Assembly: GCA_052327205.1 (NCBI GenBank)
Contig: CM126204.1
Location: forward strand, 327,856,001-327,920,000
Length of the DNA: 64,000 nt
Direction of reading: 5' to 3'
Origin: Somniosus microcephalus
Lineage: Eukaryota
The position numbers were made by a program, and so were the translations under genes. The notes below the pieces were generated by a model, which was not told the DNA's origin, did no database searches, and saw only the letters and a program-made list of their open reading frames with translations. Positions within the stretch are counted from its first letter, which is position 1. Each line of letters begins with the position of its first letter. Of the stretch, positions 8,662 to 62,813 are shown one piece after another.

Positions 8662-9068
8662 AATGTAGGTATATCTGAGAGTGTTATAGTGAGGGATGTA
8701 GGTATATCTGAGAGTGTTATAGTGAGGGATGTGAGGTATATCTGAGAGTGTTGTAGTGAGGGATGTAGGTATATCTGAGAGTGTTATAGTGAGGTATATC
8801 TGAGAGTGTTATAGTGAGGGATGTAGGTATATCTGAGAGTGTTATAGTGAGGTATATCTGAGAGTGTTATAGTGAGGGATGTGAGGTATATCTGAGAGTG
8901 TTGTAGTGAGGGATGTGAGGTATATCTGAGAGTGTTGTAGTGAGGGATGTAGGTATATCTGAGAGTGTTATAGTGAGGTATATCTGAGAGTGTTATAGTG
9001 AGGGATGTGAGGTATATCTCAGAGTGTTGTAGTGAGGGATATGAGGTATATCTGAGAGTGTTATAGTG
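8662..9068. repeat. Minisatellite with 23-34 bp variant units (gtgagggatgt[g]aggtatatctgagagtgttata)
   Basis: Tandem units are directly visible. A degenerate version lies at about 8305-8372. Confidence 0.95.
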
Positions 9069-10603
9069 AATGAAGAAGCAAAACATTTTGTATGGTTTCT
9101 TGATTAGTGAAGTACCAAGATATGCCTGCTATATCACAGTCTTGTACACATCAGAGTATTTTAAAATATTATGGTGAGCGCTGTGAGCTATGTCTAACAG
9201 TGTTATATGGAGAGTTGTGTCTTATATCAGAGGCTGTGGTATGCCACAATGTTATACTGGGTGTATTATATAGGGAGAGTATTCTGTGGATGTTAATGAA
9301 GCAATAATAAACCAATAATAAACCATCCATGCTATATCAGGAGTTGTGCATTCTTAGTGACTGCTCCAGTTAGGGGCATGGGATATTTTAGATGTGAGGG
9401 GGCATCAGAGCATGTCATATTGAACATGGTTTCTCTATTAGAGAAGGAGCCATAAAGAATGTATATCAAGACAGGGGCTGGTGTCTATCAGACAGTATTT
9501 TGGGAGAGCTATGTGTTACATCAAAGTGTGTGTTATATCAGGTAGTGTTATTGTGAGTGGACGATATATTGTCAAAGAGCGGTTTCAGGCAATCCCTAAT
9601 TGAGAGATAGCTTTTCAGGCACATACTAATCCAGGGAGTGTGTGCCTCACTCATTAGGAAAACGAGCTTCCTGCATTTAACTCTCCATGCACCCAGCCAA
9701 ATGAAACCTGCTATTACTGATTAGGATAAGGCTGGAGCCGATGCAGAGCAGATGGAAACATCCAAGCCCCTGAGGAAAATGAGCCTTGCATGTTTAGTTT
9801 GGAGCACTAGTCAGATCCAACCACAGATCTTCTACATTTGTAATATTGCTCCTCTCTCCATCCACTGCTATTTAGAAAAGCAAAGTGGGCTGTGGTACGG
9901 TGCTGAAAGCTGCAGGAACAACCTAAGTGGAGGGTGGGGCAAGACAGAGAAAGACAAATACTGACACCAAAACTTGCCAACGTATGTCACTGCGGAAAAA
10001 TCAGGCAGCCAAGTACTGCTCGCTAGCACTCGGGTAACTGTGGAGACATGGGTTCCGGGTGCATCCCACGGGGGGGGGGGGGGGGGGAGGGTGGAGGGAG
10101 GACGTCCGAGCGTCCGAGGTAGGGGAGGTCTAAACTTTCCTTTTGGAGCCCAGGAGGAGCATTCCTGCCTCTCCTTGGCTCCTCAAAGGAAAGTATAAAA
10201 CTTACCTTGAAGGGCCGCTTCTACTTCCAATCCTATTCTGACAGGCCTTCACCTCGCAGGAAAGCTGTAGCAACCTCTCTGCTCAGGCTGAAGTTAAAAT
10301 TGCAGTCAGGCCCGATGACATCATCGGACCTGGATCTGCATATTTAAAGAAGGACCCCACCGACGTTAGGCGGGTAGCTCAGCCGCCTGTCCAGGAACGC
10401 TGGCAAAAATCAGAAATGGTGGGATCCGCTCAGTGGATTTTAACTGCTAGGGTTAAAATCTACCCCAAGATAGCACTTGCCACAACAAATCACTTGCCCA
10501 ATTAATGATACACAGAATTACGTTCATGCACTTGTTTCCAGGGTGGCTCGTTCTGGCAGTAGACCTAAGCAGGTTCAAAAGATCAAGACTTTGCCGTGCT
10601 TAC

Positions 10604-10703
10604 CTCGGCTGGGGGTCCAATGACTGACAGCAAAACAGGAAGTAGGACCAGACCATTAAGGATACCCAAAACTGTTAATATGGTCAAAACAGCAAAGAAA
10701 TAC
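10604..10703 (-). CDS. ptch2: Patched-2 exon 21 (TM12), 100 bp
   Basis: Hand translation (R)[33 protein letters not shown]. Acceptor ttgcag|G, donor GAG|gtaagc. Confidence 0.95.
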
Positions 10704-10814
10704 CTGCAAATGGAGAACAGTAATTCATATTATTAGAACACTTTCATTTTGCTTTAATGTTATTACTTTAATTATATTTTATGCTCATCAAGGTCAGGTA
10801 CAAACCTGGTAATT

Positions 10815-11255
10815 CCAAGCCAGCTAGTCTGGCATCCATAATGGCAAAAATATTGAACAGTGAGGTCGAGGGTGGGTTTTTAGAGGGCCGTTGACCGTGG
10901 CAGTTTTGAAAGGGAAGGGATCAGTGCCTAAGGACAGCAAACTATTTATCATATCGGCTACAATGAGAGACAGTAAGGGAAGTTGGGTGATGAGGACTTT
11001 AGTGGGCATGGGATCAAAGAAGGGAAAACTAAAGAGATGGCGTTCAAGACAAGAGTGGGTATGTCTGCCTTAGTGGGCAAGGAGAACGGGGGAAACAGCA
11101 GAGGCAGCTAAACCGCTGGGGTGAATCCGCTTGGTGGCTGAACAGAAAACTAAGCAGCCACCCTGTGTTAAATGGGTCATGGGAATGTGGGGAGAGGAAA
11201 GAAGCTGCTCAACTCTGTCCATCCTGACCAAATTGAAGACAAACTCCATGGGATG
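10815..11255 (-). mobile_element. Degraded L2 LINE internal fragment
   Basis: ORF 10824..11009 (PTKVLITQLPLLSLIVADMINSLLSLG) is similar to the L2 ORF at 23238..24089. Confidence 0.65.
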
Positions 11256-11994
11256 TGAAAATATGAATGTAGCTACATGAGGCAGTTACCAGCCCCCACC
11301 CACCCACCCACAGACATTCACCCTCCTCCCTTTGAATATGCTGCAATCCCACATCTTTTGTCAATGCATTGTGAAACTAGGTGGCATATTCCATGGTCAG
11401 CCGTGAGCTACATCTCTTGCTGTGTAAGTAAATTGGGAAAGGTTGTGAATAATTATGGCCAATTTCCCGTTTCAGGCCTGCTGGTCTGGAGGCATTAATT
11501 ACAGAGCAAAGGGCCTCCACAGAAAGTCCTCACTGTACTTAGAAGGATTAAGACATTTGGCTCGATTTCAAGTGAAATTCCTCAGCAGAAGGCTTAGCCC
11601 TATTCCCAGTGGCAGGCTCATCTATCATTACAGTCTTGGTACTTCCTGCACTGTGTGAGTATATGCGTGTGTGAGAGCGAGAGAGACTCAGTTCTACGCT
11701 CAAAAAAATCCAGTCTCCTCCTTTTCATAATATCCCTCCCCTCATACATGGAATCCAGTATTCACTACTACTCCTTTAGAGGGATCCTCATTCCAAAACC
11801 CTCTTAAATGATGCAGAAAGGAGCTGGAACGTTACCTTGGAAGTTTAGATAAATCCTTTTGAATTGCAGTGGAAAACTGTTCAGTGTGCAAATATATTGC
11901 CACAGATTATGCATTCAGAACCCACACTTAAAAAGAAAATATGCAGTGAACTTTGAACTTATCAAGGCCAAGGTTGCCTGTTTAAAAAAAAACC

Positions 11995-12275
11995 AGGATG
12001 AACTTGTATTTATATAGTGCCTTTCAAAACCTCACGACGTCCCAAAGCACTGTTGTAATGTAGAGAAACACAGCATCTAATTTGCGCTCAGTAAGGTCCC
12101 ACAAACAGCAATGAGTTAATGATCAGATAATCTATTTTTAATGACGCTGGTTGAGGAATAAATATTGGCCAGGAAAACTTCCCTGCTTTTCTTTGAAACG
12201 TGCCATGGGATCTTTTACATCCACCTGTGAGGCCAGCCAGGCCCCTTGATTCAATATCTCATCTGAAAGACAGAT
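11995..12275 (-). mobile_element. SacSINE1/DeuSINE-like SINE, partial
   Basis: tcccacaaacagcaatg...aaatattggccagg...tgccatgggatcttttacatccacctg. Confidence 0.75.
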
Positions 12276-14421
12276 GAGGCCAATGGAATACCTTTGGTGG
12301 ATTTTATATCCTTCCTTTTTTGTTGTTGGGTTTAATATTGATCCGTCCTCAATATACCTTCTTTTAAACGTTTGATGATCATTTAAAATGTGCAGTGGCC
12401 TAACTTATTTTTAAAACACAGGAATGGTTGCAAACTGGGAACTCAGGCACAGCTGCAGAACAGCAGTAACCTTTCTACTAGTCCTTTCTGCCTTTTCTGC
12501 TTTAAAGCCTTTGAGCCCCATGTGTGCGGAGGAAGGCCAAGTGTTTATTTAACAGCACAGTAAGATAAGCAACAATATGCATTGCTTGGAATTCACAGGA
12601 ATGGCACGCAACTCCAATGGAGCCTCAGGATCTGTCTCCCCGCCTCACTGAAAACAATTTTTTTTGGCTTATGAGTTTCCATTGTGGCTTGGTTATGTCT
12701 ACATATGTTTGGGGGAGGGGGTTGGTGATACAACCTCTTGTATTACCATTTGTTAAAGGGGCCTTGGCACCTCGTGAGGAGTCAGTGGTGACAGCAGCCA
12801 ATACCCCTTTGAAACCATTTGTACATCACCTATAATCTTGCTAACAGGGGTTGACAAATTTCTAAAATTAATTTCAGGAACAGCATTGGTCACAGCAGAA
12901 TGAACCCAATCCACATGTCCCTTCTTCGTGCCAATCTCCTTCTCGCCCTGTAAAAAATAGTTGTGGTCCTGGCTTCTAAAACTGCTGATGAATCATTTAG
13001 TAAAAGATTCTTGCAGTGATATTGCTGAAAAGCCAAACTTCAGCCACTCTTTTTTTTGATCCAAACACAACTCCGTCTCATTTTACTGCCTCCCTCACTT
13101 AGTGCCAGAAAATTCACTAGACTGAATTTTCCGCATTGCTATTTGTTTCATTATGATGCCGCTTCAGTGTTTGTCTTCTACCGAACAGAGGGAAGAAAAT
13201 GCTTTGCCCCAGCCTGTTCTCCTACCCTCTGTGCTCCCCCGTGATTGAGATCAGATCACTGTGTGGAGAATCACGAGATGCAAAGTCTCTCCCTCGGACT
13301 CTGAGGCTCAGTCAGTTTAACTAGCCACAAGACCAAGAGTGGTCATTGCTACAATATACCATCCAGTGAGCTGCCCCTTCCAGGTGGCTGTGGGGTTAAC
13401 AAAATTTGACTTTGGTGTGCAACAGTGGCAAATGAACATGTTGGCTGATCACCCCCACCACCACCACCACCACACCAAGAAAAAAGAGAGGCCTTGACTG
13501 CCACCCTCCTTTGCCCTTTATAACAAGAGGGGCCCTCCTGTTACTGCAATCAGACAAGTAACCATCTTCTATTTATTTTACTTAAGCCAACAGTCTGAGA
13601 ATCAATCGGTTGGCCTGTTGTACAGGACCTCCATGTAGGCAGCATGTCAGAATCCCGTTGTTTATGCTTTCTGTAATCTTTTCCATTCTGAGGAAGGCTG
13701 GCTGAAAAATGCAGAGTTTGTTCAGCTGTTTATGGTGCATGCACCATAGAAGAAATATTTACAACAACTTCTTTACACTAACCCACGCTATCTGACTGGC
13801 TCTCTAAACAAGACCTCCCTGACTGAAAGTCTACCTTGTGGTTCATTTAGTTCAATGTTTAAAAGAAAAATGACAGTTTGGGCTTTCAAAATAGTATCTC
13901 TGTTTCTCATCGTTTCTAAATGACGCGGAGTGGAAAATATATATTTTTTCTGTTTTTCTATTAACTTTTCCCTTTTTTTTTTAAGATCCTTTCCCCCTCC
14001 GCCACCTATGCAAGGGTTCTCTCTGATCAACTGGATAGCCAGGCAACCTAGTGCCAATCCTCGGCCAATGCCACTCTGTGGGTTGACTCACATTCTGGCT
14101 TTCATTCTGTCATTGTCCACCTTCTCTCACTATGATGCTAATATATGAGAGTATAAGCGTCACCTTGTGGGGGAATAACACATTTGAACATCAGGAATTT
14201 CAACCTCCTTCTACCCCTCTGCAAAATAGCCAACACAGGCAGAGGATTTCCCTTGGTTTTTAACATTTATTTTGTGACTGGCCAACTGATTTACTTGTCC
14301 GGTCATGAATAAAATGTGTTTTTACTGAACTAACAGACTTCATTACACTGCAGGACCTGCAGCAATATGATGACTGCTGTTTTAGTGTTTTATTTGGGTT
14401 GTGATGTATGGATTCATATAG

Positions 14422-14870
14422 TGTCAGCCATGGCTCAGTAGTAGCACTCTTGCTTATAAGTCAGAAGGTTGTGGGCACAAGCCCCACTCCAGAGACTCGA
14501 GTGCATAGCCCAGGCTGGCACTTCAGTGCAGTACTGAGGGAGTGCTGCGCTGTTGGAAGTGCTGTCCTTTGGATGAGATGCTGAACCGAGGCTCCATCTG
14601 CCCTCTCAGGTGGACGTAAAAGATCCTACGGCATTACTTCAAAGAAGAGCAGGGGCATTCTCCCCGGTGTCCTGGCCAATATTTACCCCTCAAAGCAACA
14701 CCAAAACCAAATTATTTCATTGCTGTTTGTGGGAGCTTGCTGCGTGCAAATTGGCTGCTGCATTTCCTACATTACAACAGTGACTACACTTCAAAAGTAC
14801 TTCATTGGCTGTGAAGACTTTGGGACTTCCTGAGGTTGTGAAAGGTGTGATATAAATGAAAATTCTTTCT
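14422..14870 (+). mobile_element. SacSINE1/DeuSINE-like tRNA-derived SINE, near full length
   Basis: tRNA-like head (tggctcagtagtagcactct...gtcagaaggttgtggg), central block caggtggacgtaaaagatcc...tgtttgtgggagcttgctg, and an L2-like tail. Confidence 0.85.
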
Positions 14871-16082
14871 TTCACCAAACTGATTGAAAACGCATTGTAA
14901 AAAATGGATGCAGGAGGAAATGACAATCAAATTATCTTTTATTTTATTTTTGCTATTGCTTTATATCCTAAAATCTTAATTGACATTTCTCTTTGGCAAG
15001 GCATCTGGAATAGTTTCAACTTCTGAAGTAGATATCAGTGACAGCCGGATGGCGTTTACAGCGACTGGATTTCAAGAGTGACAAATTTCATCTGGATTCA
15101 AACCTCTCCCTTCCCTGTGTACTGGCCTCCAGAGATATGCTGGGTCCCATCTGAGCCAGTGGAGCAGGAACTCCCGGTATAAGGAGTTCCTGCCCCGTTT
15201 CTGGCCCTAGATAACATCTGCCCTGTAGGGGACGGTAGAAGTTCTGCTCCATACAACACAAGACAAAAACTCTGAGTGTCCGTCATTTTCCAGTGGGTTC
15301 TGCCAGAGTTATGTCAGTGCCCCAAGGAATTTTGGTCCCTCTGAGTTACGTACCCACCGAGGCTGATCTGGCAAACCTTTAGGCAAATGGCTGCAAAGTA
15401 GCATTGCCAGGCTGCCTGCCTGCCTCCCCTTTTTGGCTGGGTGTATGGCTCATGGAAGAAAGGAAGCACATATAGGACAGGGAGAAAACAAAAATTTGCT
15501 TACAATTCACTTCATAATTAGGTGTTTAATTTTATAGAACATTTAAAATCTCACCAGTTCCATCTTACTCAAAGCAATGGATTTGGGATTCAGAACATTA
15601 GCCTAGCCCAGCTCCCCCCCCCCCCGGAAGGCAGTGTGTTCCAGTCTAACTTCTGCTCTGGGAACACTTATGGACTGGATATCTACTCAGTGTCATAGGT
15701 TACATCAATCAAATGAGCAGGAATGACAGCTGCGTATCACCCTTACAGGGAGCGATGAAAAAGACTTAAATCACTATCACATATGGACATCAAATTCCCT
15801 ATAGGCACTGGACGCTACTTCAGCACCTCTATTGCAGACACTCTGTTCTATCATTTGCATGATTAAAATAATACAACAACAGCTTACATTTATATAGCGC
15901 ATTTAACGTAGTAAAATGTCCCAAGGCACTTAACAAGAGCGATATCAATAAAAACATTTTTGACACCGAGCCACAAAAGGAGATATCAAGACAGATGACC
16001 AAAAGCTTGATTAAAGAGGGAGGTTTTAATACAGTTTATTAAAGTTTAATTCAAAGATTATTTAACCCTGCAATAATAATAA

Positions 16083-17750
16083 TTGAGGTGCTGTATTAGT
16101 TTGAAGTACTGTATTAGTTTGAGGTGCTGTAATAGTTTGAGGTGCTGCATTAGTTTAAAGTGCTGTATTAGATTGCGGTGCTGTGTTAGTTTGAGGTGCT
16201 GTATTAGTTTGAGGTGCAGTATTAGTTTGAGGTGCTGTATTAGTTTGCAGTGCTGTGTTAGTTTGAGGTGCTGTATTAGTTTGAGGTGTTGTATTAGTTT
16301 GAGGTGTTGTATTAGTTTGAGGTGTTGTATTAGTTTGAGGTGCTGTATTAGTTTGCAGTGCTGTGTTAGTTTGAGGTGCTGTATTAGTTTGAGGTGCTGT
16401 ATTAGTTTGAGGTGCTGTATTAGTTTGAGGTGTTGTATTAGTTTGAGGTGCTGTATTAGTTTGCAGTGCTGTGTTAGTTTGAGGTGCTGTATTAGTTTGA
16501 GGTGCTGTATTAGATTGCAGTGCTGTATTAGTTTGAGGTGCTGCACTAGTTTGAGGTGCTGTGTTAGATTGCAGTGCTGTATTAGTTTGAGGTGCTGCAC
16601 TAGTTTGAGGTGCTGTGTTAGATTGCAGTGCTGTATTAGTTTGAGGTGCTGCACTAGTTTGAGGTGCTGTATTAGTTTGAGGTGCTGTATTAGTTTGAGG
16701 TGCTGTATTAGTTTGCAGTGCTGTGTTAGTTTGAGGTGCTGCGTTAGTTTGAGATGCTGTATTAGTTTGAGGTGCTGTATTAGTTTGAGGTGCTGTATTA
16801 GTTTGCAGTGCTGTGTTAGTTTGAGGTGCTGTATTAGTTTGAGGTGCTGTATTAGTTTGAGGTGCTGTGTTAGTTTGAGGTGCTGTGTTAGATTGCAGTG
16901 CTGTATTAGTTTGAGGTGCTATATTAGTTTGAGGTGCTGTATTAGTTTGCGGTGTTGTGTTAGTTTGCGGTGCTGTGTTAGTTTGCGGTGCTGTGTTAGT
17001 TTGCGGTGCTGTGTTAGTTTGCGGTGCTACATTAGTTTGAGGTGCTGTATTAGTTTGCGGTGCTGTATTAGTTTGAGGTGCTGTATTAGTTTGCGGTGCT
17101 GTGTTAATTTGCGGTGCTACGTTAGTTTGAGGTGCTGTATTAGTTTGAGGTGCTGTGTTAGTTTGAGGTGCTGTATTAGTTTGAGGTGCTGTATTAGTTT
17201 GAGGGGCTGTATTAGTTTGCGGTGCTACATTAGTTTGAGGTGCTGTATTAGTTTGAGGTGCTGTATTAGTTTGCGGTGCTGTATTAGTTTGCGGTGCTGT
17301 ATTAGTTTGCGGTGCTGTATTAGTTTGAGGGGCTGTATTAGTTTGCGGTGCTGTATTAGTTTGCGGTGCTGTATTAGTTTGCGGTGCTGTATTAGTTTGC
17401 GGTGCTGTATTAGTTTGCGGTGCTGTATTAGTTTGCGGTGCTGTATTAGTTTGCGGTGCTGTATTAGTTTGCGGTGCTGTATTAGTTTGCGGTGCTGTAT
17501 TAGTTTGAGGTGCTGTATTAGTTTGAGGTGCTGTATTAGTTTGAGGTGCTGTGTTAGTTTGAGGTGCTGTATTAGTTTGAGGTGCTGTGTTAGTTTGCGG
17601 TGCTGTATTAGTTTGAGGTGCTGTATTAGTTTGCGGTGCTGTATTAGTTTGCGGTGCTGTATTAGTTTGCGGTGCTGTATTAGTTTGCGGTGCTGCATTA
17701 ATTTGAGGTGCTGCATTAGTTCGAGGAGCTGAAATAGTTTGAGGTGCTGT
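16083..17750. repeat. 18-bp minisatellite (gtgctgtattagtttgag and variants), about 92 units
   Basis: Directly visible. It explains the long repetitive ORFs (RCCISL)n, (PQTNTA)n and (QHLKLI)n. Confidence 0.98.
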
Positions 17751-19054
17751 ATCACTGAGAATAAAGAATGTTTCAGTGATCACTTCATTCCTTTAAAACA
17801 TGTCCTCTTTTTAAAAAAAACTACTGTCTCACCCTCCCTTGTTTAGCTGCAGCCCCCAATACCACAAACCAGTCCCCAAATGAGAGTGCCTGTAGCTGGC
17901 CTACTCCCAAGCCTGTGTAAATATCACTCTGTATTTCTCCATTATCAGCAATGCAGGGCCAAGGGCTCCTTCCCCCCCATTCCAGGGTTGGTCACTCTCC
18001 TTCACTGTAGGGAAAGACTTGCCTCACCCTCATCCTCTCAATATCTCCCTTTTGGGTTGGGGGTGGAGTGGGGAAAGGGAGAAAAAAATTGCTGATTTAT
18101 AACATTATGTTTTCAACTCTGCAGGCGTATCTAGTTCTTTTAAAGTCAACTGTAAATCTCACTGACTAATCACCCAAGTGGTGAGTTTCCATTTTCAGGT
18201 ATACCATCAGGTTGGGGGAGGAGGGGCACCGACTGGGCAGGAGGAAGTGCCAGATGAAGGCTCGGCACTTTCTGACAGGGGAAGGGTGGAGAGCAAACAG
18301 CAATTTTTTTCAGATGAGGGGGAGGAAGTTAACACATGCAAGACGTTTTCCTTTCCCCCCCAGAAGATTCCTTGTTCTTACATCACAAGCACGGTGTAAT
18401 TATCCAACCTTTCGATCAGTCCCCACTCTGGAGACATTATTGCATTCAGTGAAAACACAAGCCAATCTTGACGCACACAAGCTGTAACAGTATAAGAGGC
18501 TGGGTCCCTTGTGCAGAAAGGAGCTGTACTGAGCCCAGGGTGGCAGGTGTCCAACAATTCTGTATTTGGCTCCCGCAGTCATTAGATTGGATTATATTCC
18601 CACCTTCTGATGTATAAGAATTGCTGGGGCAGGACACTGCTAACATTCCCCCAGAATGACAGGAGTACAACACTTCTAACATTCTCCAAGTGTTACAGGA
18701 ACGCTGCACCATTAACAGCACCCAGAGTCAACATGATTTTCATTGAAGTTTGAACATGCTACCGCTGTCCCGCTGAGCCAGTCAATCTGCATGTGAAAGG
18801 AATTGTGCCTGTGAATGGCCAAAGAGTGAGATTTCTCATCACCCTACTACACTGGTAAGCAAGTGAAAGATTTACCCCCAAGTTCCAACATGGTCAGTAC
18901 CCGTACTGAAATGGATCAGGAAGAGTGAGGGACTGAATGGAGTCCATGTACTTTGCCACATAGACACAATGAAGCTGAACCGCTGAGAGAAAATGGACAT
19001 AGCCAGTGGTTGGTTGAACAGCCGCATTGACAGACCCCTGATAAAAGTCATTAT

Positions 19055-19232
19055 GGGCTATTTTGACCTAACTCGCCAGTCAGGAAACTGTCGGGGATCG
19101 GGTGCAATGCTGGTTTTACACCCCGTCTGATTTTAATCTCCATTAAAGTCAATGGGGCTGGGTGTAGAGCCAAGCATTCCACCCAATCCTGCTGGCTTCC
19201 CATCAGGTGAGTCAGGCTAAAATTACCTCCAT
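19055..19232. mobile_element. Old palindromic MITE
   Basis: Imperfect fold-back around ccattaaagtcaatgg, with ends gggctattttgaccta / ggctaaaattacctcc. Confidence 0.5.
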
Positions 19233-19426
19233 TTGCTCATCCTCTCGGTTGGGGAATGGTATTTCACAACATAAGGAGCAGGGGGAAACATAACTTTAAA
19301 AAAATGAAATTGACAAAAATAGTTTAAAAAAAAAGTTCATCCATTCTGGCTTATTTGTGGTGGATAATGGAAAAGAGGAATCTCACTGAAAATGTTGTCC
19401 CGACAGGGTCTCCTTTCAAAACCTAC

Positions 19427-19569
19427 CTAATGATGAAGTCAAACTCAGAACCAGCCAACATCAGGACCCCGAGTAGTGTGGAGATTGCCCCGTCTATTAC
19501 TGGTGCAAACATGTGTTCCAGTGCCACAGCGGAACGCAGATTCCTATTTCCAATGGCAGTCAGGAAACC
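19427..19569 (-). CDS. ptch2: Patched-2 exon 20, 143 bp
   Basis: Hand translation [47 protein letters not shown](R). Confidence 0.95.
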
Positions 19570-19646
19570 CTATAGTGTAATAAATATTACATATTTATAT
19601 TAATAGCCAGATTGTACAAACAGGAAGAAATGCACTTAAACACATT

Positions 19647-20446
19647 GGGCTGGATTTTCATTGAGGAGTCGGGTAGGAGGCGGGACTACAACTTTTGGGG
19701 TTGTAGTCCCGCCTCCATTGAGTTCTAGCCAACCCACGCGATATTGACTTGATTGACCTTGTTGAGCCCGCCCAGCGGGCTCAGCAGGCCAATTAGGGGC
19801 CACCCGGCAACAGGTGACGTCACAGATTGATATTTCATCTGTCAAGACCTTTTGAAGCTGTCGAACACTGACAATCTGTACTCCAGGTTAATTCCTTCCT
19901 CTCAGGCTGATTTAGAGATCTCCCCGGAACAGAAAGCTGAATGCTGCAATTTTTGACAGCTCGCAGCCATTCTGCTTTCTGTGCCGGTGAAATGAGGGAC
20001 TCCCGAGACCTGAAGGAAGGAAGGCTGTAAAGGTAAGTAAAGGTATGTAAAACTTATTTAAACACTTTACACACACCAAACACACTTACCTTTGCACTCA
20101 TGCACCCATCACTCACCTGAACACCAGACATCTCGACCCCTCCAAATCCTTCATCCCGACGGTTCGCCTCCTCTAACTTGGCGTGGTTTGGAGCCGTCGG
20201 GAATCCCACACTTCAACATTAAAAATATGGATTAGGCTAAAAACTGCCTGTTAACAGGCAATTAATTGGCACTAATCCCCTTCCCGCCTCGGGGAGGCGG
20301 GTCCCAGTGCGGGTCGGGTACCCGCCTCCTTTGAAACTGGCATGGAGGCGGGTTGGGTGCGGGATGGGTTTGTGCACCCGATTTCGGGATTTTAACCCCC
20401 CACACGCCTTCAATCCCGCTTCCACGGCCCAATGAAAATCCTGCCT
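19647..20446. mobile_element. 800-bp Harbinger-like MITE, older subfamily
   Basis: TIR gggctggattttcattg / caatgaaaatcctgcct. TSD ATT at 19644-19646 and 20447-20449. Internal gtgacgtcac. Confidence 0.7.
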
Positions 20447-20559
20447 ATTTTGTTTAAAAATTAAGTTAACAGGATTTACCATTAGCTCGTTTGAATCTGC
20501 TAAATACCCCAGATGTTTATTTCTCTATTGCTGCAAAAAGGAAAACACTTTTCTTTTAG

Positions 20560-20905
20560 ATTCATAGCATCATAGAAGTTTACGGCACAGAAGGAGGCCA
20601 TTCGGCCCATTTTGTCTGTGCTGGCCGAAAGAGCTAACCGGCCTCATCCCACTTTCCAGCTCTTGGTCCATAGCCTTGTAGGTTACGGCAATCCAAGTGC
20701 ATATCCAAGTACTTTTTAAATGAGAGTCAGCACGGGCTTGACGGGCCAAATGGCCGCCTTCCGTGCTGTAACCATTCTATAATTCTATGAGGGTTTCTGC
20801 CTCTACCACCCTTTCAGGCAGTGAGTTCCAGACACCCACCACCCTCTGGGTGAAAAAAGTTTTTCTTCAACTCCCCTCCAATCCTTCTACCAATTACTTT
20901 AAATT
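20560..20905 (-). mobile_element. CR1-type 3' fragment with a nested, oppositely oriented CR1 tail
   Basis: catagaagtttacggcacagaaggaggccattcggccc. The inner plus-strand tail at about 20725-20786 is flanked by atgag. Confidence 0.7.
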
Positions 20906-21402
20906 GTTGTATCTACAATGGTCATCAATATTAAGTCTATCCTGCTGCTAAATTCTTCTGCTCTAAATTTACGTATTTATCAACACTACCACCACCAACT
21001 TGCATTTAGTTGGTGCCTTAAAAGTAGAAATTGTCCCAAGGTGCTTCACAGAAGTATAATCAGACAAAAATCAACACTGAGCCAAAGAAGAATATATTAG
21101 GAGGGGTGATTAAAAGGTTGGTCAATGAGATAGGTGTTAAGAAGGGTCTTAAGGAGGAGAGGCTGAGACATTTAGGGAGAGTTTAGGGCCTTGACAGCAG
21201 AAAGCATGCTCACCAATGATGGGGTGAAGAGATTGGGCGATGCACAAGAGGGTGGAGTAGGAGGAATGCAGAGATAGGAAAAAACTAGAGTGAGACATGG
21301 GTTCAGCACCAAGACTTGACTGTGGGCAAAAGTCACAGCCCTGGGATGGGCTGCGGTTGTCCTTGTTGGTAGGCATATACAAGACTGTGGTGATCTACTT
21401 AC

Positions 21403-21540: not shown

Positions 21541-22200
21541 CTACAGATAAACAAGAGAAGGTTAATATCTTAGACTTGCATGGATAGCAAGAGCTCTCGA
21601 TGGCTTGGGCCTGGGTGGCAAGAAGTCCATCTGTAATGGGTAGTGTCACCAGGGTAAAGTACCTTACAAGACATTTCACCATTTATGTGTATGGTGGGGG
21701 AGTGAAATGACACTGCTAATTTATTACATATAATCACAATTTCCACAAAATACTAGGTTTCAAAATACAAAAAAAAGAGAAGAAATTCTAATAGATTGTG
21801 CTACAGTAGATGCAGGAATAAAAATGCGCAGTTTGGTTTTAGTTGAGGAGCTAATCAGTGGAACAGAGGCTCGCATATTGCTAGACAAGAATTAAATTGG
21901 TGGATAAAAGCACGGATATTATTCAGAACCTGGTGAGCTGCTTTTTTAAAACATATCCGATTAGGAAAATATCTTGTCCTTGCCTAGCTGGCGTTGAATT
22001 TGCCAAAGATTGTAGTCCTCCCCCCTCCTCCATTATAATGCAGTCCTTTGGAGCCATACAACAGTGACTACACTTCAAAAACTACTTCATTGGCAGTAAA
22101 GCGCTTTGGGAAGTCCGGTGGGTGTGAAAGGTGCTATATAAATGCATGTTTTTCTTTCATATAGAAAATAAGTTGAAAAAGGGTACAGGATTTGTGTCAT

Positions 22201-24085
22201 AACAACAATAACTTGTATTTATATAGCACTTTTAATGTAGTAAAACGTCCCAATGTGCTTCACAGGAGTATTAAAAGACAAAAAATTTGACACTGAGCCA
22301 CATAAGGAGAAATTAGGGCAGGTGACCAAAAGCTTGGTCAAAGAAGTAGGTTTTAAGGAGCGTCTTAAAGGAGGAAAGAGAGGTAGCGAGGCGGAGAGGT
22401 TTAGGCAGGGAATTCCAGAGCTTAGGGCCTAGGCAACAGAAGGCACGGCCACCAATGGTTGAGCGATTATAATCAGGGATGCTCAAGAGGGCAGAATTAG
22501 AGGAGTGCAGATATCTTGGGGGGTTGTGGGGCTGAAGGAGATTACAGAGATAGGGAGGGGCGAGGCCATGGAGGCATTTGAAAACAGGGATGAGAAATCT
22601 GAAATTGAGGCGTTGCTTAACCGGGAGCTAAAGTAGGTCAGTGAGCACAGGGGTGATGGGTGAATGGGACTTGGTGCGAGTTAGGACACGGGCAGCCGAG
22701 TTTTGGATTACCTCAGGTTTATGTAGGGTAGAATGTGGGAGGCCGGCCAGGAGTTCATTGGAATATTCAAGTCTAGAGGTAATATAGGCATGGATGAGGG
22801 TTTCAGCAGCAGATGAGCTGAGGCAGGGGTGGAGACAGGCAATGTTACGGAGGTGGAAATGGGCGGTCTTTGTTATGCTGCGGATATGTGGTCGGAAGCT
22901 CAATTCAGGGTCAAATATGACACCAAGTTTGCGAACAGTGTGGTTCAGCCTCAGACAGATGTTAGGGAGAGGGATGGAGTCAGTGGCTAAGGAACGGAGT
23001 TTGTGGCGGAGACCGAAAACAATGGCTTTGTTCTTCCCAATATTTAATTGCCGAAAATTTCTGCTCGTCCAGAACTGGATGTTGGACAAGCAGTCTGACA
23101 ATTTAGGGGTCGAGAGAAGTGGTAGTGAGGTAGAGCTGGGTGTCATCAACGTGCATGTGGAAACTGACGCTGTGTTTTTGGATGATGTCGCCAAGGGGCA
23201 ACATGTAGATGAGAAATAGGAGGGGGCCAAGGATAGATCAGTGGGGGACACCAGAGGTAACTATGCGGGAGTGGGAAGAGAAGCCGTTGCAGGTGATTCT
23301 CTGGCTATGATTAGATAGATAAGAATGGAACCAGGTGAGTGCAGTTCCACCCAGCTGGACGACGGTGGAGAGATGTTGGAGAAGGATGGAGTGGTCAACA
23401 GTGTCAAAGGCTGCAGACAAGTTAAGAAGGATGAGGAGGGATAGTTTACTTTTGTCACAGTCACAAAGGATGTCATTTGTGACTTTGATGAGAGTAGTTT
23501 TGGTACTGTGGCAAGGGCGGAAACCTGATTGGAGGGATTCAAACATGGCATTGTGGGAAAGATGGGCACGGCTTTGGGAGGCGAATACATGTTCAAGGAC
23601 TTTGGAGGTTGGAGATGGGGCGGTAGTTTGCAAGGGCGGAGGGATCAAGGGTTTTTTTGAGGAGAGGTGTAATGACAGCAAATTTGAGGGAGGGGGGACA
23701 GTACCTGAGGAGAGAGAACCATTAACAATGTCAGCTAACATGGGAGCCAGAAAAGGAAGTTGGGTGGTGAGCAGTTTAGTGGGAATAGGGTCGAGGGCGC
23801 AGAAAGTGGGTCTTATGGACAAGATGAGCACGGAGAGGTCATGAGGGGAGAGCGGAGAGAAACTGGAGAAAGATGTGAGTTCAGGGCTAGGGCAGGGGGG
23901 AACTTTTGAGGAAGTTTGGCCCGGTGGGCTAGGGGAAGGAAGGGAAGCGGCAGAGGCAGCTGAACGGATGGTCTCACTCTTAGAGACAAAGAAGTCCATG
24001 AACTCCTTGCACTTGTTTTCGGAGGTGAGGGTGGAAGAGACAGGGGAGAAGGATTTAAGAAGATGGTTAGCAGTAGAGAATAAGG
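22201..24085 (-). mobile_element. 5'-truncated L2 LINE (decayed RT region plus 3' UTR and tail)
   Basis: ORFs contain FESLQSGFRPCHST, LNLSAAFDTVDH, SGVP and LGVIFDPELSF, with frameshifts. The tail is acttgtatttatatagc. Confidence 0.92.
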
Positions 24086-25764
24086 ACAAAGTTCATTATG
24101 GGTTCTCCACCACGTTGTATAAAAATCTGTTATATAAGTCAAGACATAAAGGGAGTATTTTATTTTTTATCATTCATATTTCCTCACTTACGTGGGTGGC
24201 AGAGTAATTTGAGAGAAACATGTTGCTCCCCTTGCTTTTAATGGGCTGTTCCATTGATGATGTCATGGATTGAGTTACAATCTGTAATGGGTTTCCCACA
24301 TTACTTCTTCAATTAATTACATCATCCAGTGGAACAGTTCATAGAAAAAGAGGGGGGAAATCATAATTCTGGTATTAACATTTAAGATATATTCAAGACT
24401 TTGAATGCTTGAAACAACTAAGGGACTCACTCGTTGACAGAATCAGAAAAGCTTCCTGTAAGTTTGAGGATTTACTTTAAGGGTTAACTTCAAAAGGGGA
24501 GAGGAGAAAGGTGTTGCCCTTTTGTAAGAAAATGCTGGAGCAAGGGGTTTGTTTATAGTTTGCGCTTTTATCTTCCGCTGCGAGCTATTTAAATGTAAAT
24601 TCTTTCAGCCTCCTCTAGCCCTAACCTGGAGAAGATGAGGTTAGCAGCAAGCAAGCATTCTCTCTGAACCTTGCTGCCACTATCATCTGTTAGGCATCGA
24701 GTTACAGGGGCCTCCCGTGATTCAATGTTTACAAGGAATGTCTACCACCTTTAAAGTGGGGACAAGTAAACCTTTTGTTTCCATTTTTTTATTCCACAGA
24801 ACCAGCGCCCACTCCTAACTCTTTGCTTGCAAGTTGAAGCCTTACACATTTGGCTGCATGACTACAATGAACAGTCAAGGTTTTGCGTGCCTGCATGAAA
24901 ATTGGTTCTCTCTTTTCTTTTTCGGTTTCCCTGTAACTAGGTTATGATAAGATTCTTGCTTTGAAGTCAGCACGAGGCAGGTTTTGTCACGCATACCCTG
25001 TTGTTTGACTTGCGCAAAAGGAACCATAGATAACTTAAAAAATTCCTTCATAATGAAACTGAGCAGGATTACTATACACAGACGAGTTTCCAGCATGCCA
25101 CTGTTATAAAGGGAATTGTCACTACTGTAACTAAGCATCAACTAAGAAGCAAAATATATATTTTTTAAATTCCAAAGTAATGTTTTTTTGCCAAACAGAT
25201 TTTTGTAGAAAAATATTGCGGTCGTGTGTTTGTGCATAAACATATTGTGCCGTAAAATGGGAGGAAAAGATATCACATCCAAGATATGTTGGTCTTCCCT
25301 TCCCCATAGTTATTTTCCAATCTCAGCTGTGCCAAACTAAAGGCTGGACTCAGCTCCTAAAGGAGAGGAGTAACATTGAAGGGCAACTCATCCCTCAGCC
25401 TTGGTGCTGGTGCATGTTGACTCTTTCGTGGCCAACTGAACAAATAGAGGGTTTTGACTCTACAATTCACACATGTGTTCAAGCCCATCAGCGCGTGAAA
25501 TGGAGGAAAGGGAGAGCCTCATAATGCCTGCGGGTACGCGACAAGGCTGTAATTGAATGGGGGGGGTGGTGGGGGGGCGAGCGGGGCGTTGAGATGATAT
25601 CACAATTTACAACTTCAGTATTTTGTGAACATCATCCAAAACCCCTAAATTCATTTACATCCTTGTAACCTAATCCCAGATATTTATTATTTCCATTTTT
25701 GAACTCACTTGTACTTTAAAGAACATAATGGTTTCTCAAAATTGTTGCAATTTCTGTATTTTAG

Positions 25765-31737: not shown

Positions 31738-33400
31738 CCTTCTAGGTGCTAGAGGTCACGGGTTTGGGAGGTACTGTCAAAGAAGCCTTGGCGAGTTGCT
31801 GCAGACACGGTGCATCAGTGGTGGAGGGACTGAGGCCTAGAAATTGGCCTGAGGCGCCCAAGCGGTGCAAAGTTCGCTTGTGCGCTGGAATTTGCGCCGC
31901 GATCGCCACATTAGCGATCGCCGCAAATTCAGTTGAAGTGCCCCTAGAGGGAGACGGGGCGCGGCTCGAGGCGCTCCGCGTCCCTCTTAGGGCGCTGGCG
32001 CTGAAACTGAATATCGCAGCGCAACATGCCGCAGCGCCACACGCTGTGGCACGGCGCGCTGCGGTACTGCAGGCCTTCCTCCCACTGTTAAGGGGGAGGG
32101 GCCTGCAACAGCGCGATCCCCGCTCGCAAGTGCTAGCAAACGAGCCCGGCACCAAGGAGAAGTGCCGGGCTCTCGGGAAACAGCCGGCAATGCCGCGGGG
32201 AGGGGGGTTAGGAGGCCGGGGATGGAGGTGCTGGCAGGCGGCCGCCCCGCACCTCCACCTTAACTTGCGCTGCTGCCGGCACAGTAAGGCCCTGTGAACC
32301 GGGCGCGGGTAGCGAACGGTGCAACTGCGGCGTTCGCTACCAAATATCGCGAACGGGGCGCAAATGGGGTGCTGCGCACACCGATGACATCATCGGTGGT
32401 GGCGCAGCGCAAATGGCTAACGCCACCATTAGCGCCCCTGCTGAATATCGTGGGAGGCGCAGCCAGTGGCGCTACAGCCACTGACTGCCTCTTTAGGCGC
32501 TAAGAGGTGGCGCTACTCACCCAATTTTTCCCCCTGAATGTTTAAGGTGCTGGATGGGGTGCCAATCAAGTGGGCTGCTTTGTCCTGGATGGTGTTGAGC
32601 TTTTTGAGTGTTGTTGGAGCTGCACTCATCCAGGCAAGTGGAGAGTATTCCATCACACTCCTGACTTGTGCCTTGTAGATGGTGGGAAGGCTTTGGGGAG
32701 TCAGGAGGTGAGTCACTCACTCAGAATACCCAGCCTCTGACCTTATCTTGTAGCCACAGTATTTATGTAGCTGGTCCAGTTAAGTTTCTGGTCAATGGTG
32801 ATCCCCAGGATGTTGATGGTGGGGGATTCGACAATGGCAATGCAATTGAATGTCAATGGGAGGTGGTTATACTTTCTCTTGTTGGAGGTGGTCATTGCCT
32901 GGCGCTTGAGTGGCATGAATGTTACTTGCTACTTATCAGCACAAGCCTGAATGTCATCCAGGTCTTGCTGCATGCGGGCATGGACTGTTTCATTATCTGT
33001 GGAGTTGCGAATGGAACTGAACACTGTGCAATCATCAGCGAACATTCCCACTTTTGACCTTATGATGGAGGGAAGGCCATTGATGAAGCAGCTGAAGATG
33101 GTTGGGCCTAGGACACTGCCCTGAGGAACTGCTGCAGCGATGTCCTGGGGTTGAGATGATTGGCCTCCAACAAGCACAGCCATCTTCCTTTGTGCTAGGT
33201 ATGACTCCAGCCAGTGGAGAGTTTCCCTCCCGATTCCCATTGACTTCAGTTTTACTAGGGCTCCGTAATGCCACACTCACTCAAATGCTGCCTTGGTGTC
33301 AAGGGCAGTCACTCTCAGCTCACCTCTGGAATTCAGCTTTTTTATCCATGTTTGGGCCAAGGCTGTAATGAGGTCAGGAGCTGAGTGGTCTTGGCAGAAC
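31738..33400 (-). mobile_element. CR1-group LINE RT fragment interrupted by MITE copy B
   Basis: VPQGSVLGPTIFSCFIN...MFADDCTVF and TIYKAQVRSVMEYSPLAW, with frameshifts. Confidence 0.88.
31834..32534. mobile_element. GC-rich 701-bp MITE, copy B
   Basis: Left end ggcctagaaattgg, right end ccaatttttccccc. TSD TGA at 31831-31833 and 32535-32537. Confidence 0.88.
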
Positions 33401-39994: not shown

Positions 39995-40359
39995 AAGGAT
40001 TTAAAACGAGAGGCGGGAGAGATGGAAAAAGATAAGGTGCCCGAGGAAGCAAAAGGTGCCGCAAGATTGAGTTAAAGAACAAGGTGGCACTTGGCACAAA
40101 CTTTCCTGGCACTTTTCAGACCAAGTTTAAGGACCAGGCTGTTCTCAGTGCTGAACTTGCCAACAAATCCCATAGCTTTTGGAGCGACGGCTTTCCTGAG
40201 AAATTCTGGGCAGAGTTTAAAGATTATGTAAAACTGGCCCCACAGCCTTGGTCAATTAGGATAGGGTAAGCAGTGTGGTTGTTCAGTAAATTGAAGTTTG
40301 CGCTCCCATGGGCTGGGAGGGACTAAACTCCAGGCATTGATTTGTGCTGGTCATTTCAG

Positions 40360-41268
40360 TTGGGCCTTACACTAAACATCCGTAAGACAAAGGTCCTCTA
40401 CCAACCTGCCCCCGCCACACAGTACTGCCCCCCGATTATCAAAATCCACAACAAGGCCTTGGACAATGTGGACCACTTTCCATACCTCGGGAGCCTACTG
40501 TCAACAAGGGCAGACGTCGATGACGAAGTCCAACACCGCCTTCAGTGTGCCAGTGCAGCCTTCGGTCGCCTGAGGAAGAGAGTGTTTGAAGACCAGGACC
40601 TCAAACCCAGCACTAAGTTCATGGTCTACAGAGCAGCAGTGATACCCGCCCTGCTGTATGCCTCAGAGACATGGACCATGTACAGCAGGCACCTCAAAGC
40701 ACTGGAGAGGTGCCACCAACGCTGCCTCTGCAAGATCCTGCAAATCCATTGGCAGGATAGACGCACCAACGTCAGTGTTCTCGCTCAGACCAACATCCCC
40801 AGCATCGAAGCTTTGACCACGCTCGATCAGCTCTGATGGACGGGTCACATCGTCCGCATGCCCAATACGAGACTCCCAAAAACAAGCGCTCTACTCGGAG
40901 CTCTGACACGGCAAGAGAGCCCCAGGTGGGCAGAGGAAATGCTTCAAGGACACCCTCAAAACCTCCTTGAAAAAGTGTAACATCCCCACTGACACCTGGG
41001 AATCCCTGGCCCAAGACCGCACAAAGTGGAGGAGAAGCATCCGGAAGGTGCCGAACACCTCGAGTCTCTTCACCGGGAGCAAGTGGAAGCCAAGCACAAG
41101 CAGCGCAAGGAGCGCACGTCAACCCAAGCACCCCACCCACCCGCCCCTTCAACCACCGTCTGCCCCACCTGTGACAGAGACTGTAGGTCCCGCATCAGTC
41201 ACCTGAGAACTCATTTTTAATATGGAAGCAAGTCATTCTCGGTTCCGAGGAACTGCCTAAGAAGGAAG
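40360..41268 (+). mobile_element. RTE-clade LINE 3' portion
   Basis: LGLTLNIRKTKV...HFPYLGS...ASAAFGRL...LLYASETWT, AQDRTKWR and a C-terminal CPTCDRDCRSRISHLRTH zinc finger. Contains an in-frame stop and frameshifts. Confidence 0.9.
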
Positions 41269-44032: not shown

Positions 44033-44620
44033 GGAACCATCATAACCATCATAATCCATCATAATCAACTTTATTGTCATTGTTAGTGCACAAGTGCAGT
44101 ACAACGAAATGTAGGCTTGCGGCTCCCGAGAGTGTACATTTAGATTAAGACATTTAAACATTCAACATACATTTGGCTTGTAATACATTAACATAAACAT
44201 AACCATAATAAAGATGTGCAGGTTTTAGAGTTTATTTGTGGAGTTCAGTAGGATGACAGCCCTGGGAAAGAAGCTGTTCCTAAATCTGGTCATACGGGTG
44301 CGAATGCATCTGTAGCATCTCCCAGATGGCAGGAGGGCGAACAGACTGTGGCTGGGGTGGGTAGGGTCTTTGATGATGGACCGTGACCTCCGTAAACAGC
44401 ATTTTTGGTATATGTGCTCTATGGTCGGTAGCCGGGTGCCGGTAATGCGTTGGGCAGTTTTGACTACCCACTGCAGGGCTTTCCGGTCATAGTAGCTACA
44501 GCTGCCATACCATACTGTGATACAGTTCGTCAGGATGCTCTCTATTGTGCAGCGGTAAAAGTTAGAGAGGATCAGGGGTGACAGGTTACATCCCTTCAGC
44601 CTCCTTAGGAGGTAAAGGTG
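44033..44620 (-). mobile_element. Rex1/Babar LINE 3' end
   Basis: LYLLRRLK...FYRCTIESILTNCITVWYG...IIKDPTHPSHSLFALLPSGR...FRNSFFPRAVILLN, followed by AATAAA and a short tandem-repeat tail. Confidence 0.88.
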
Positions 44621-44781
44621 ACGAATGAGTTCAGCTCTCATACTACAGGTTGTAAATCAGCATTAAGGAGGTCTGGGACCAAATCACCAGTTGAAAATTG
44701 GTATGTGGCAAATGGAAGGTGTAAAGAGGAAAAATAATAATAATGTATAATATATATTTTTTTTTAATTGAAAGACACATG

Positions 44782-62494: not shown

Positions 62495-62813
62495 AATCCC
62501 AGAGGGGATCGATAACCTTTCTCAATCCCAGAGCGGATCGATAACCTTTCTCAATCCCAGAGCGGATCGATAACCTTTCTCAATCCCAGAGCGGATCGAT
62601 AACCTTTCTCAATCCCAGAGCGGATCGATAACCTTTCTCAATCCCAGAGCGGATCGATAACCTTTCTCAATCCCAGAGCGGATCGATAACCTTTCTCAAT
62701 CCCAGAGCGGGTCGATAACCTTTCTCAATCCCAGAGCGGATCGATAACCTTTCTCAATCCCAGAGCGGATCGATAACCTTTCTCAATCCCAGAGCGGATC
62801 GATAACCTTTCTC
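62495..62813. repeat. 29-bp tandem repeat, 11 near-identical copies (aatcccagagcggatcgataacctttctc)
   Basis: 319 bp equals 11 x 29. Only about 2 substitutions and no spacers. Confidence 0.97.

What the first reader, a model, noticed from the sequence alone, without database searches (positions are those of the whole stretch)
16083..17750. Intronic 18-bp minisatellite puts about 90 Quaking/SF1-type ACUAAY motifs into the ptch2 pre-mRNA
Seen: on the transcribed (minus) strand each unit reads CUCAAACUAAUACAGCAC or ...ACUAACACAGCAC. Nearly all units keep ACUAAY; a minority become ACUAGU, UCUAAY or AUUAAY. Established: the QKI response element is ACUAAY plus a UAAY half-site within about 20 nt, SF1 binds the related branchpoint YUAAY, and QKI affects splicing and circRNA formation and has been linked to Hedgehog signalling in zebrafish muscle. 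The 18-nt period makes most neighbouring units a bipartite site. Inference: intron 20 could be a length-variable QKI/SF1 landing pad or sponge that affects exon 20-21 splicing. It could equally be a neutral VNTR.
Basis: partly seen in the sequence, partly recalled or inferred. Interest (0 to 1): 0.7.

Follow-up and report, generated by a model that had tools for sequence, protein, structure and literature searches.

The report
Dispersed minisatellite copy in ptch2 intron
The repeat in this Patched-2 intron is one copy of an 18-base tandem repeat found at many places in the genome, so its Quaking-type motifs come with the repeat family and are likely incidental rather than a splicing switch.

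Summary
The array is real: 92 units of 18 bp at 16083-17752, in the intron between ptch2 exons 20 and 21. On the sense strand 80 of 92 units carry ACUAAY (64 ACUAAU, 16 ACUAAC), not about 90. The repeat is not special to ptch2. The same unit has 1,512 exact two-unit matches genome-wide and was seen on 13 contigs, including tRNA/vault-RNA macro-repeats and a chromosome-end array over 15 kb. In 30 other array segments 3,297 of 4,507 units also carry ACUAAY. The ptch2 copy shows ordinary minisatellite turnover and no clear extra protection of the motif. It lies 1.7 kb from the donor and 5.4 kb from the acceptor, outside the short ranges reported for QKI repression and QKI/SF1 branch-site competition. 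Its donor-side edge is present at the same site in three related organisms, so it is old. One relative's contig fits normal exon 20-21 splicing; two RNA runs did not cover the exons tested. QKI binding in vitro is likely; a regulatory role is unsupported. A cryptic last exon encoding (APQTNT)n is possible but unlikely. Verdict: ordinary member of an apparently undescribed minisatellite family.

The parts
16083..17752 (-). 18-bp minisatellite, 92 units, consensus GCACCTCAAACTAATACA; 80 ACUAAY on the sense strand; CCG-variant units in the 5' half, CTG-variant units at 3-6 unit spacing in the 3' half, degenerate units at both ends
10704..19426 (-). ptch2 intron 20 (GT..AG, 8,723 nt) that holds the array
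19427..19569 (-). ptch2 exon 20 (143 nt, ends in phase 2)
   Evidence: covered without differences by a contig of organism H
10604..10703 (-). ptch2 exon 21 (100 nt; last transmembrane helix, assignment recalled)
17755..17775 (-). Weak acceptor-like site (10 of 16 pyrimidines, CAG) just before the array; in frame with exon 20 if used; use not shown
   Evidence: 26 other YAG sites in this intron have 11 or more of 16
16155..17753 (-). Open frame of 532 codons reading (APQTNT)n, then TAA; a property shared by other arrays of the family
   Evidence: no Pfam match; no hit among longer proteins
16035..16040 (-). AATAAA about 115 nt after that stop codon (1 of 6 in the intron)
15873..16029 (-). 5'-truncated 3' end of a LINE-like element, 54 nt after the array, same strand; 78% identical to the end of a longer copy at 22202-22356 (L2/CR1 label recalled)
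15888..16066 (-). Candidate 179-nt pseudo-exon (AG about 28 nt after the last ACUAAU, GTAAG donor; in-frame stops); the only geometry seen in which a unit could act as branch site; use not shown

Best explanation
The array is one copy of a genome-wide 18-bp minisatellite family that sits deep in ptch2 intron 20 and is likely a near-neutral passenger, removed with the intron. Shown: the unit occurs at many unrelated loci with the same ACUAAY; the ptch2 copy has unique flanks and its own variant units arranged in blocks; its donor-side edge is present at the same site in three related organisms. Inferred: a seed of units arrived before those lineages split, by ectopic repair or as a retro-copied repeat RNA, and has since grown and been homogenised in place by slippage and unequal exchange. 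Predicted: QKI would bind the unstructured repeat RNA, but 1.7 and 5.4 kb from the splice sites this would do little to exon 20-21 joining.
For: 1,512 exact 28-mer matches in G000, 0 for the reversed control. Family seen on 13 contigs: C1, C3, C4, C19, C32, C33, C37, C38 (first 100 places listed), C41, C82, C20, C29, C40. On C38 it lies in 22-26 kb duplicated units with tRNA and vault-RNA genes; on C4 it fills all 15 kb fetched, about 1.2 Mb from the contig end. ACTAAY is in 3,297 of 4,507 units of 30 other segments (range 0.50-0.97); 3 of 30 equal or exceed ptch2's 0.87; two C19 arrays have more ACTAAC (0.26-0.27) than ptch2 (0.17). Distinct substitution types in the ptch2 array: 4 over the 5 ACTAA positions, 13 over the 12 positions outside the hexamer. 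The CCG variant is locus-specific (21 of 25 genome matches) and clustered in the 5' half (0 of 20,000 permutations as extreme). Flanks match no other array locus. A 526-nt contig of organism H matches 19424-19570, ending where an exon 20-21 junction predicts.
Against: The ptch2 copy is at the high end for motif retention (0.87 against a pooled 0.73) and for ACUAAC (0.17 against 0.03). It has persisted at this site across relatives whose flanks differ by about 3-7% substitutions. The comparison arrays were found by similarity to the ptch2 array or by a pattern containing ACTAAT, which inflates their motif content. The RNA is predicted open (MFE -9.2 against shuffles -23.1 kcal/mol, z +4.5). Neutrality was not tested directly: the two RNA read sets had no reads on exons 19 and 20, and it is not known whether organism H carries the array.
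Confidence: 0.8

Rival explanations
1. The array has been co-opted as a cis QKI landing pad: QKI dimers load on the nascent intron and tune exon 20-21 splicing, intron removal or back-splicing, with strength set by copy number.
For: 80 bipartite sites on the sense strand; unstructured RNA; position shared with organisms C, D and E; QKI can promote inclusion from the downstream intron (PMC9786888, passages); intronic tandem repeats associated with splicing are common in humans and enriched for RBP binding (PMC10078293, abstract in listing and passages).
Against: Motif is the family consensus; 1.7 and 5.4 kb from the splice sites; no partner cluster in the 8 other introns examined, 0-3 motifs each, which a looping model would want (recalled); exons 20 and 21 are 143 and 100 nt, so skipping either alone shifts the frame; no sign of motif-specific constraint.
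Confidence: 0.1
2. The array is a cryptic alternative last exon: exon 20 splices to the AG at 17755 and reads in frame through about 530 codons of (APQTNT)n to a stop and AATAAA, giving a Ptch2 without its last helix and cytoplasmic tail but with a Pro/Thr-rich extension.
For: Pyrimidine-rich CAG right before the array, frame compatible with exon 20, 88 units without stop or frameshift, AATAAA 115 nt after the stop; the two commonest variants (positions 6 and 15) are synonymous in this frame; no difference at the AG is listed for C, D or E (tables cut).
Against: 6 of 30 other segments have open runs of 94-115 units; 26 YAG sites in the intron have more pyrimidines; only 5 of 18 substitution types are synonymous; the contig of organism H ends at 19424, not 19427, and no joint from exon 20 to the array is listed; no Pfam or longer-protein hit (weak evidence).
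Confidence: 0.04
3. The family as a whole acts in trans: transcripts of the large arrays elsewhere soak up QKI or SF1 in some tissues, and the ptch2 copy is a minor part of that pool.
For: RNA run X21 has 153 reads on the first 53 nt of the array, all with a base that differs from this locus, so from other loci; X22 has 1. Thousands of units genome-wide.
Against: X21 reads are split 79 to 74 between strands, as read-through or DNA carry-over would give; two samples of one study; no binding data; the ptch2 copy is 92 of several thousand units in a pre-mRNA that was not detected.
Confidence: 0.04
4. The last unit supplies a branch site for a 179-nt poison exon (16066-15888) in the LINE tail, and SF1/QKI competition there sets how much ptch2 mRNA is degraded.
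For: Last ACUAAU lies about 28 nt before a CAG, with a GTAAG donor 179 nt on and in-frame stops; this is the spacing described for QKI/SF1 competition (PMC13004596, passages).
Against: One of 26 such YAG sites; needs one unit, not 92; the contig of H ends at 19424, not 19425; no RNA support.
Confidence: 0.02

Closest known systems
Dispersed minisatellite families with variant-repeat (MVR) structure (recalled class; shark simple repeats richer on short chromosomes, PMC10620051 passages)
   Same: 18-bp unit, kilobase arrays, variant units in blocks with polarity and degenerate ends, many loci, concentration on smaller contigs and several near contig ends.
   Different: A/C-rich unit with about 39% GC; much of the family rides in tRNA/vault-RNA macro-repeats; the unit was not found in print.
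Splicing-associated intronic tandem repeats such as the CFTR (TG)n bound by TDP-43 and the 25-bp ABCA7 VNTR (PMC10078293, passages)
   Same: Intronic tandem array that multiplies an RBP motif on the sense strand.
   Different: The CFTR repeat lies near its 3' splice site and those repeats have measured effects; this one is kilobases away, and neither length variation nor an effect is shown.
Quaking response element and QKI/SF1 competition at ACUAA branch sites (PMC9786888, PMC13004596, passages)
   Same: NACUAAY core plus UAAY half-site within 20 nt, 80 times.
   Different: Described sites are one or two ACUAAC elements 20-60 nt before a 3' splice site, or within about 100 nt upstream of a cassette exon; here 64 of 80 are ACUAAU, none is UACUAAC, and the true acceptor is 5.4 kb away.

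Membership tests
Minisatellite (VNTR class) | Head-to-tail unit of about 10-60 bp over 0.5 to several kb | tested here: met
   18 bp x 92.8, 1.67 kb
Minisatellite (VNTR class) | Variant units arranged by in-place turnover | tested here: met
   CCG block 5', CTG units 3', locus-specific variants
Minisatellite (VNTR class) | Copy number varies between individuals | not testable with these tools
Dispersed repeat family | Same unit at many unlinked loci | tested here: met
   1,512 exact 28-mers; 13 contigs
Transposon-borne internal repeat | Shared flanks or termini between the ptch2 copy and other copies | tested here: not met
   Only array letters matched other array loci; other arrays do share flanks with each other
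Quaking response element | NACUAAY plus UAAY within 20 nt on the transcribed strand | tested here: met
   80 of 80 cores
Quaking response element | Single-stranded, accessible RNA | tested here: met
   Predicted only, on 301 of 1,670 nt: centroid unpaired, z +4.5
Quaking response element | QKI binding in cells and a QKI-dependent effect | not testable with these tools
   No CLIP or knockdown data
QKI/SF1-contested branch site | ACUAA 20-60 nt upstream of a used 3' splice site | tested here: not met
   5,379 nt from the exon 21 acceptor; none within 300 nt of it; only an unverified cryptic AG at 16067 fits
Splicing-associated tandem repeat | Repeat length associated with a splicing change | tested here: inconclusive
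   No reads on exons 19-20 in 2 of 2 RNA read sets; one contig fits normal splicing
Coding mucin-like repeat exon | Spliced into mRNA in frame, frame kept better than in non-coding copies | tested here: inconclusive
   Frame open for 88 units, but 6 of 30 other segments have longer runs; no junction seen

The most novel reading that the evidence does not exclude
An old minisatellite has been exonised as an alternative last exon of ptch2: exon 20 splices into the array and makes an 11-helix Patched-2 ending in about 530 residues of (APQTNT)n, a mucin-like tail of variable length in place of the last helix and the cytoplasmic tail, with QKI loading on the 80 motifs deciding between this exon and exon 21.
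Probability: 0.04. Interest if true: 0.8.

Novelty: new member of a known kind. Interest (0 to 1): 0.2.

Why it matters
As it stands, little: it adds an apparently undescribed minisatellite family, shared by at least seven coded organisms, and shows how a tandem unit can multiply a 6-nt protein-binding motif without any sign of selection. It could serve as a marker for repeat turnover and for tRNA-cluster duplication in these genomes. If the array did tune ptch2 splicing, or made a mucin-tailed Patched, it would be a repeat-length dial on Hedgehog feedback and a clear case of a satellite turned into gene regulation; nothing here shows that.

Tried and rejected
Expression and splicing: no RNA holder listed among indexed runs. 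Two raw RNA runs of organism A (24% and 31% of each read) had zero depth in the bins over exons 19 and 20, so intron retention, back-splicing and cryptic exons could not be judged. Runs of F and G gave almost no cover of the unique flank, so presence at the orthologous site is unknown for them and for H. Host genes at other arrays: 82 of 346 flank ORFs of 85+ codons were scanned; hits were retroelement and DDE-transposase domains plus three weak or sub-threshold others, no clear host exon, so sense/antisense bias in other introns is untested. No Rfam match in 15 further loci. Shared transposon ends or a clear target-site duplication for the ptch2 copy: none found. Origin of the unit from a SINE: one 15-of-18 match near window 42586 in 275 kb of non-array DNA, about what chance gives, rejected. 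Coding reading: no Pfam family and no protein of 932-2,660 aa at E 1e-10. Literature: 'shark + minisatellite + genome assembly' (13 listed, none on this by title or abstract start), 'QKI + ACUAAY + tandem repeat' (2, unrelated), 'satellite DNA + elasmobranch + satellitome' (0), four spellings of the unit (0), shark repeat terms (15 of 31 listed). The library lacks most subscription journals and no repeat database could be searched. The circRNA search was seen as a listing only. No supplements were opened. Earlier scan notes: nothing by place or by sequence.

Full report
Observation. On the minus strand it parses into 92 whole units with consensus GCACCTCAAACTAATACA. 80 of 92 carry ACUAAY (64 ACUAAU, 16 ACUAAC), none is UACUAAC, and all 80 have a UAAY half-site within 20 nt. 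The rest of the window has 18 such motifs on the sense strand and 20 on the other. The excess is real but is one motif amplified; 5.5% of random 18-mers of this composition contain it.

Host gene. Ten patched exons were located on the minus strand, and two match PTCH1 structures at 159 and 165 bits. The genome has a second patched gene on C1, 72% identical over the same exon, which scores 189 bits against PTCH1. This gene is therefore most likely ptch2. The array lies in the 8,723-nt intron between exon 20 (19569-19427) and exon 21 (10703-10604), 1,674 nt from the donor and 5,379 nt from the acceptor. No ACUAAY lies within 300 nt of the splice sites of these two exons. Exon numbers follow human PTCH1 as recalled.

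The unit is a genome-wide family. A two-unit 28-mer has 1,512 exact matches in the genome and the reversed control has 0. Copies were seen on C1, C3, C4, C19, C32, C33, C37 and C38 (first 100 places), C41, C82, C20, and C29 and C40. On C38 many arrays lie in duplicated units of 22-26 kb that hold tRNA genes (13 calls in 8 of 15 loci) and a vault RNA gene (3 matches). On C4 the repeat fills all 15 kb fetched, near the contig end. Some arrays share flanks with one another (C20, C33, C37, C38:29.8 Mb). The ptch2 copy shares none. Shark simple repeats are reported to be richer on short chromosomes (PMC10620051, passages), which fits.

Is the motif specially kept at ptch2? I parsed 30 other array segments from 18 regions, dropping 5 segments with fewer than 25 seed matches. 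3,297 of 4,507 units carry ACTAAY (73%; range 0.50-0.97). ptch2 at 0.87 is high, but 3 of 30 equal or exceed it, and two C19 arrays have more ACTAAC. These loci were found by likeness to the ptch2 unit, which inflates their motif content, and duplicated loci are not independent. Within the ptch2 array there are 4 distinct substitution types over the 5 ACTAA positions and 13 over the 12 positions outside the hexamer, too few to show a difference. Variants are local and polar: CCG units fill the 5' half (0 of 20,000 permutations as extreme), CTG units recur every 3-6 units in the 3' half, and 21 of 25 genome matches of the CCG unit are here. This is ordinary minisatellite turnover. Beside the C19 arrays lie related units that have lost the motif altogether.

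Relatives. Single-copy contigs of organisms C, D and E run from the unique flank into the array at the same site: 51 nt in C, 30 nt in D, and about 300 nt of repeat-like letters in E, whose flank has 45 other letters in 639. The array is therefore older than these splits. Only the donor-side edge was tested. Family contigs also appear in F, G and H. Persistence alone is weak evidence for function, because the unique intron sequence beside it persists too.

RNA. Two raw RNA runs of organism A had zero depth on exons 19 and 20, so splicing could not be judged. One of them had 153 repeat reads that differ from this locus, on both strands, so other copies are transcribed or carried over as DNA; the other had 1. 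A 526-nt contig from organism H (RNA is a guess of the tool) matches 19424-19570 with no difference. An exon 20-21 junction predicts a match ending at 19424; the two cryptic acceptors predict 19427 and 19425. Contigs drop rare forms, and H's intron was not covered.

QKI and SF1. The response element is NACUAAY plus UAAY within 20 nt; QKI represses from within or about 100 nt upstream of a cassette exon and activates from the downstream intron (PMC9786888, passages). QKI and SF1 compete at ACUAA branch sites 20-60 nt before a 3' splice site (PMC13004596, passages). The zebrafish Hedgehog link is gli2a mRNA stabilisation (PMC4699748, one passage). A 301-nt piece of the repeat folds less than 100 of 100 shuffles, so binding in vitro is likely. 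The position does not fit branch-site competition, the 8 other introns examined have 0-3 motifs each, and skipping exon 20 or 21 alone would shift the frame. Intronic repeats can change splicing (PMC10078293, passages), so a small effect is not excluded.

A CAG just before the array is in frame with exon 20 and opens 532 codons of (APQTNT)n, followed by TAA and AATAAA. Against it: 26 YAG sites in the intron have more pyrimidines, 6 of 30 other segments have longer open runs, only 5 of 18 substitution types are synonymous, no junction was seen, and no protein or Pfam match was found. I put it at 4%.

Mechanism. Shown: family membership, unique flanks, local variant structure, shared site in relatives. 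Inferred: a few units were seeded into the intron long ago and then expanded in place. A truncated LINE-like 3' end lies 54 nt downstream on the same strand, so a template switch onto repeat RNA is one possible route, ectopic repair another; neither is tested. Predicted: removal with the intron and little effect on the mRNA.

Verdict. Observation confirmed with a corrected count. The neutral-repeat reading is the best supported (0.8); QKI co-option 0.1. The family was not found in five literature searches, with the limits given under Tried and rejected. New member of a known kind; interest 0.2.

Noticed in passing
G000:C38, about 1.6-16.9 Mb and 45.8-46.6 Mb (L029-L033, L041-L043): Duplicated units of 22-26 kb, many blocks 90-98% identical, each with tRNA genes or pseudogenes, often a vault RNA match, and a 3-4 kb array of this minisatellite; copies lie in both orientations.
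   Followed up: partly
L029:5805-5877 and L042:7592-7664: tRNA-like genes called with anticodons TTA and TCA inside the C38 units; probably mutated copies, not checked as suppressor tRNAs.
   Followed up: no
G000:C4:351430001-351445000 (L045, L046): Highly homogenised array of the same unit, 825 units in 15 kb, running off both ends of the fetch, about 1.2 Mb from the contig end; 97% of units keep ACTAAY.
   Followed up: partly
L047 and L048 (C19, 84.08 and 84.38 Mb): The array grades into related 18-bp units that lack ACTAAY, and a degenerate array on the opposite strand lies about 175 nt away.
   Followed up: no
window 8663-9069, 62495-62813, 1712-1809: Other tandem repeats: a 34-bp-based array in the next intron, a 29-bp x 11 array at 98% identity, and an AC microsatellite.
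   Followed up: no
window 19620-21300, 22200-24170, 32660-33280, 40330-41200, 44230-44660: High-copy interspersed repeats and decayed LINE-like reading frames fill the introns; the stretch 19620-21300 draws many RNA reads from other loci.
   Followed up: no
runs X21 and X22 on window 17700-17752: Repeat-family reads are present in one RNA sample (153 reads) and nearly absent in the other (1 read) at similar read depth, which may mean tissue-specific transcription of other copies.
   Followed up: no
L044 (C1:86.655 Mb) and L034 (C41:45.895 Mb): Two other arrays with unique surroundings begin directly after what look like retroposon 3' tails (labels recalled).
   Followed up: no
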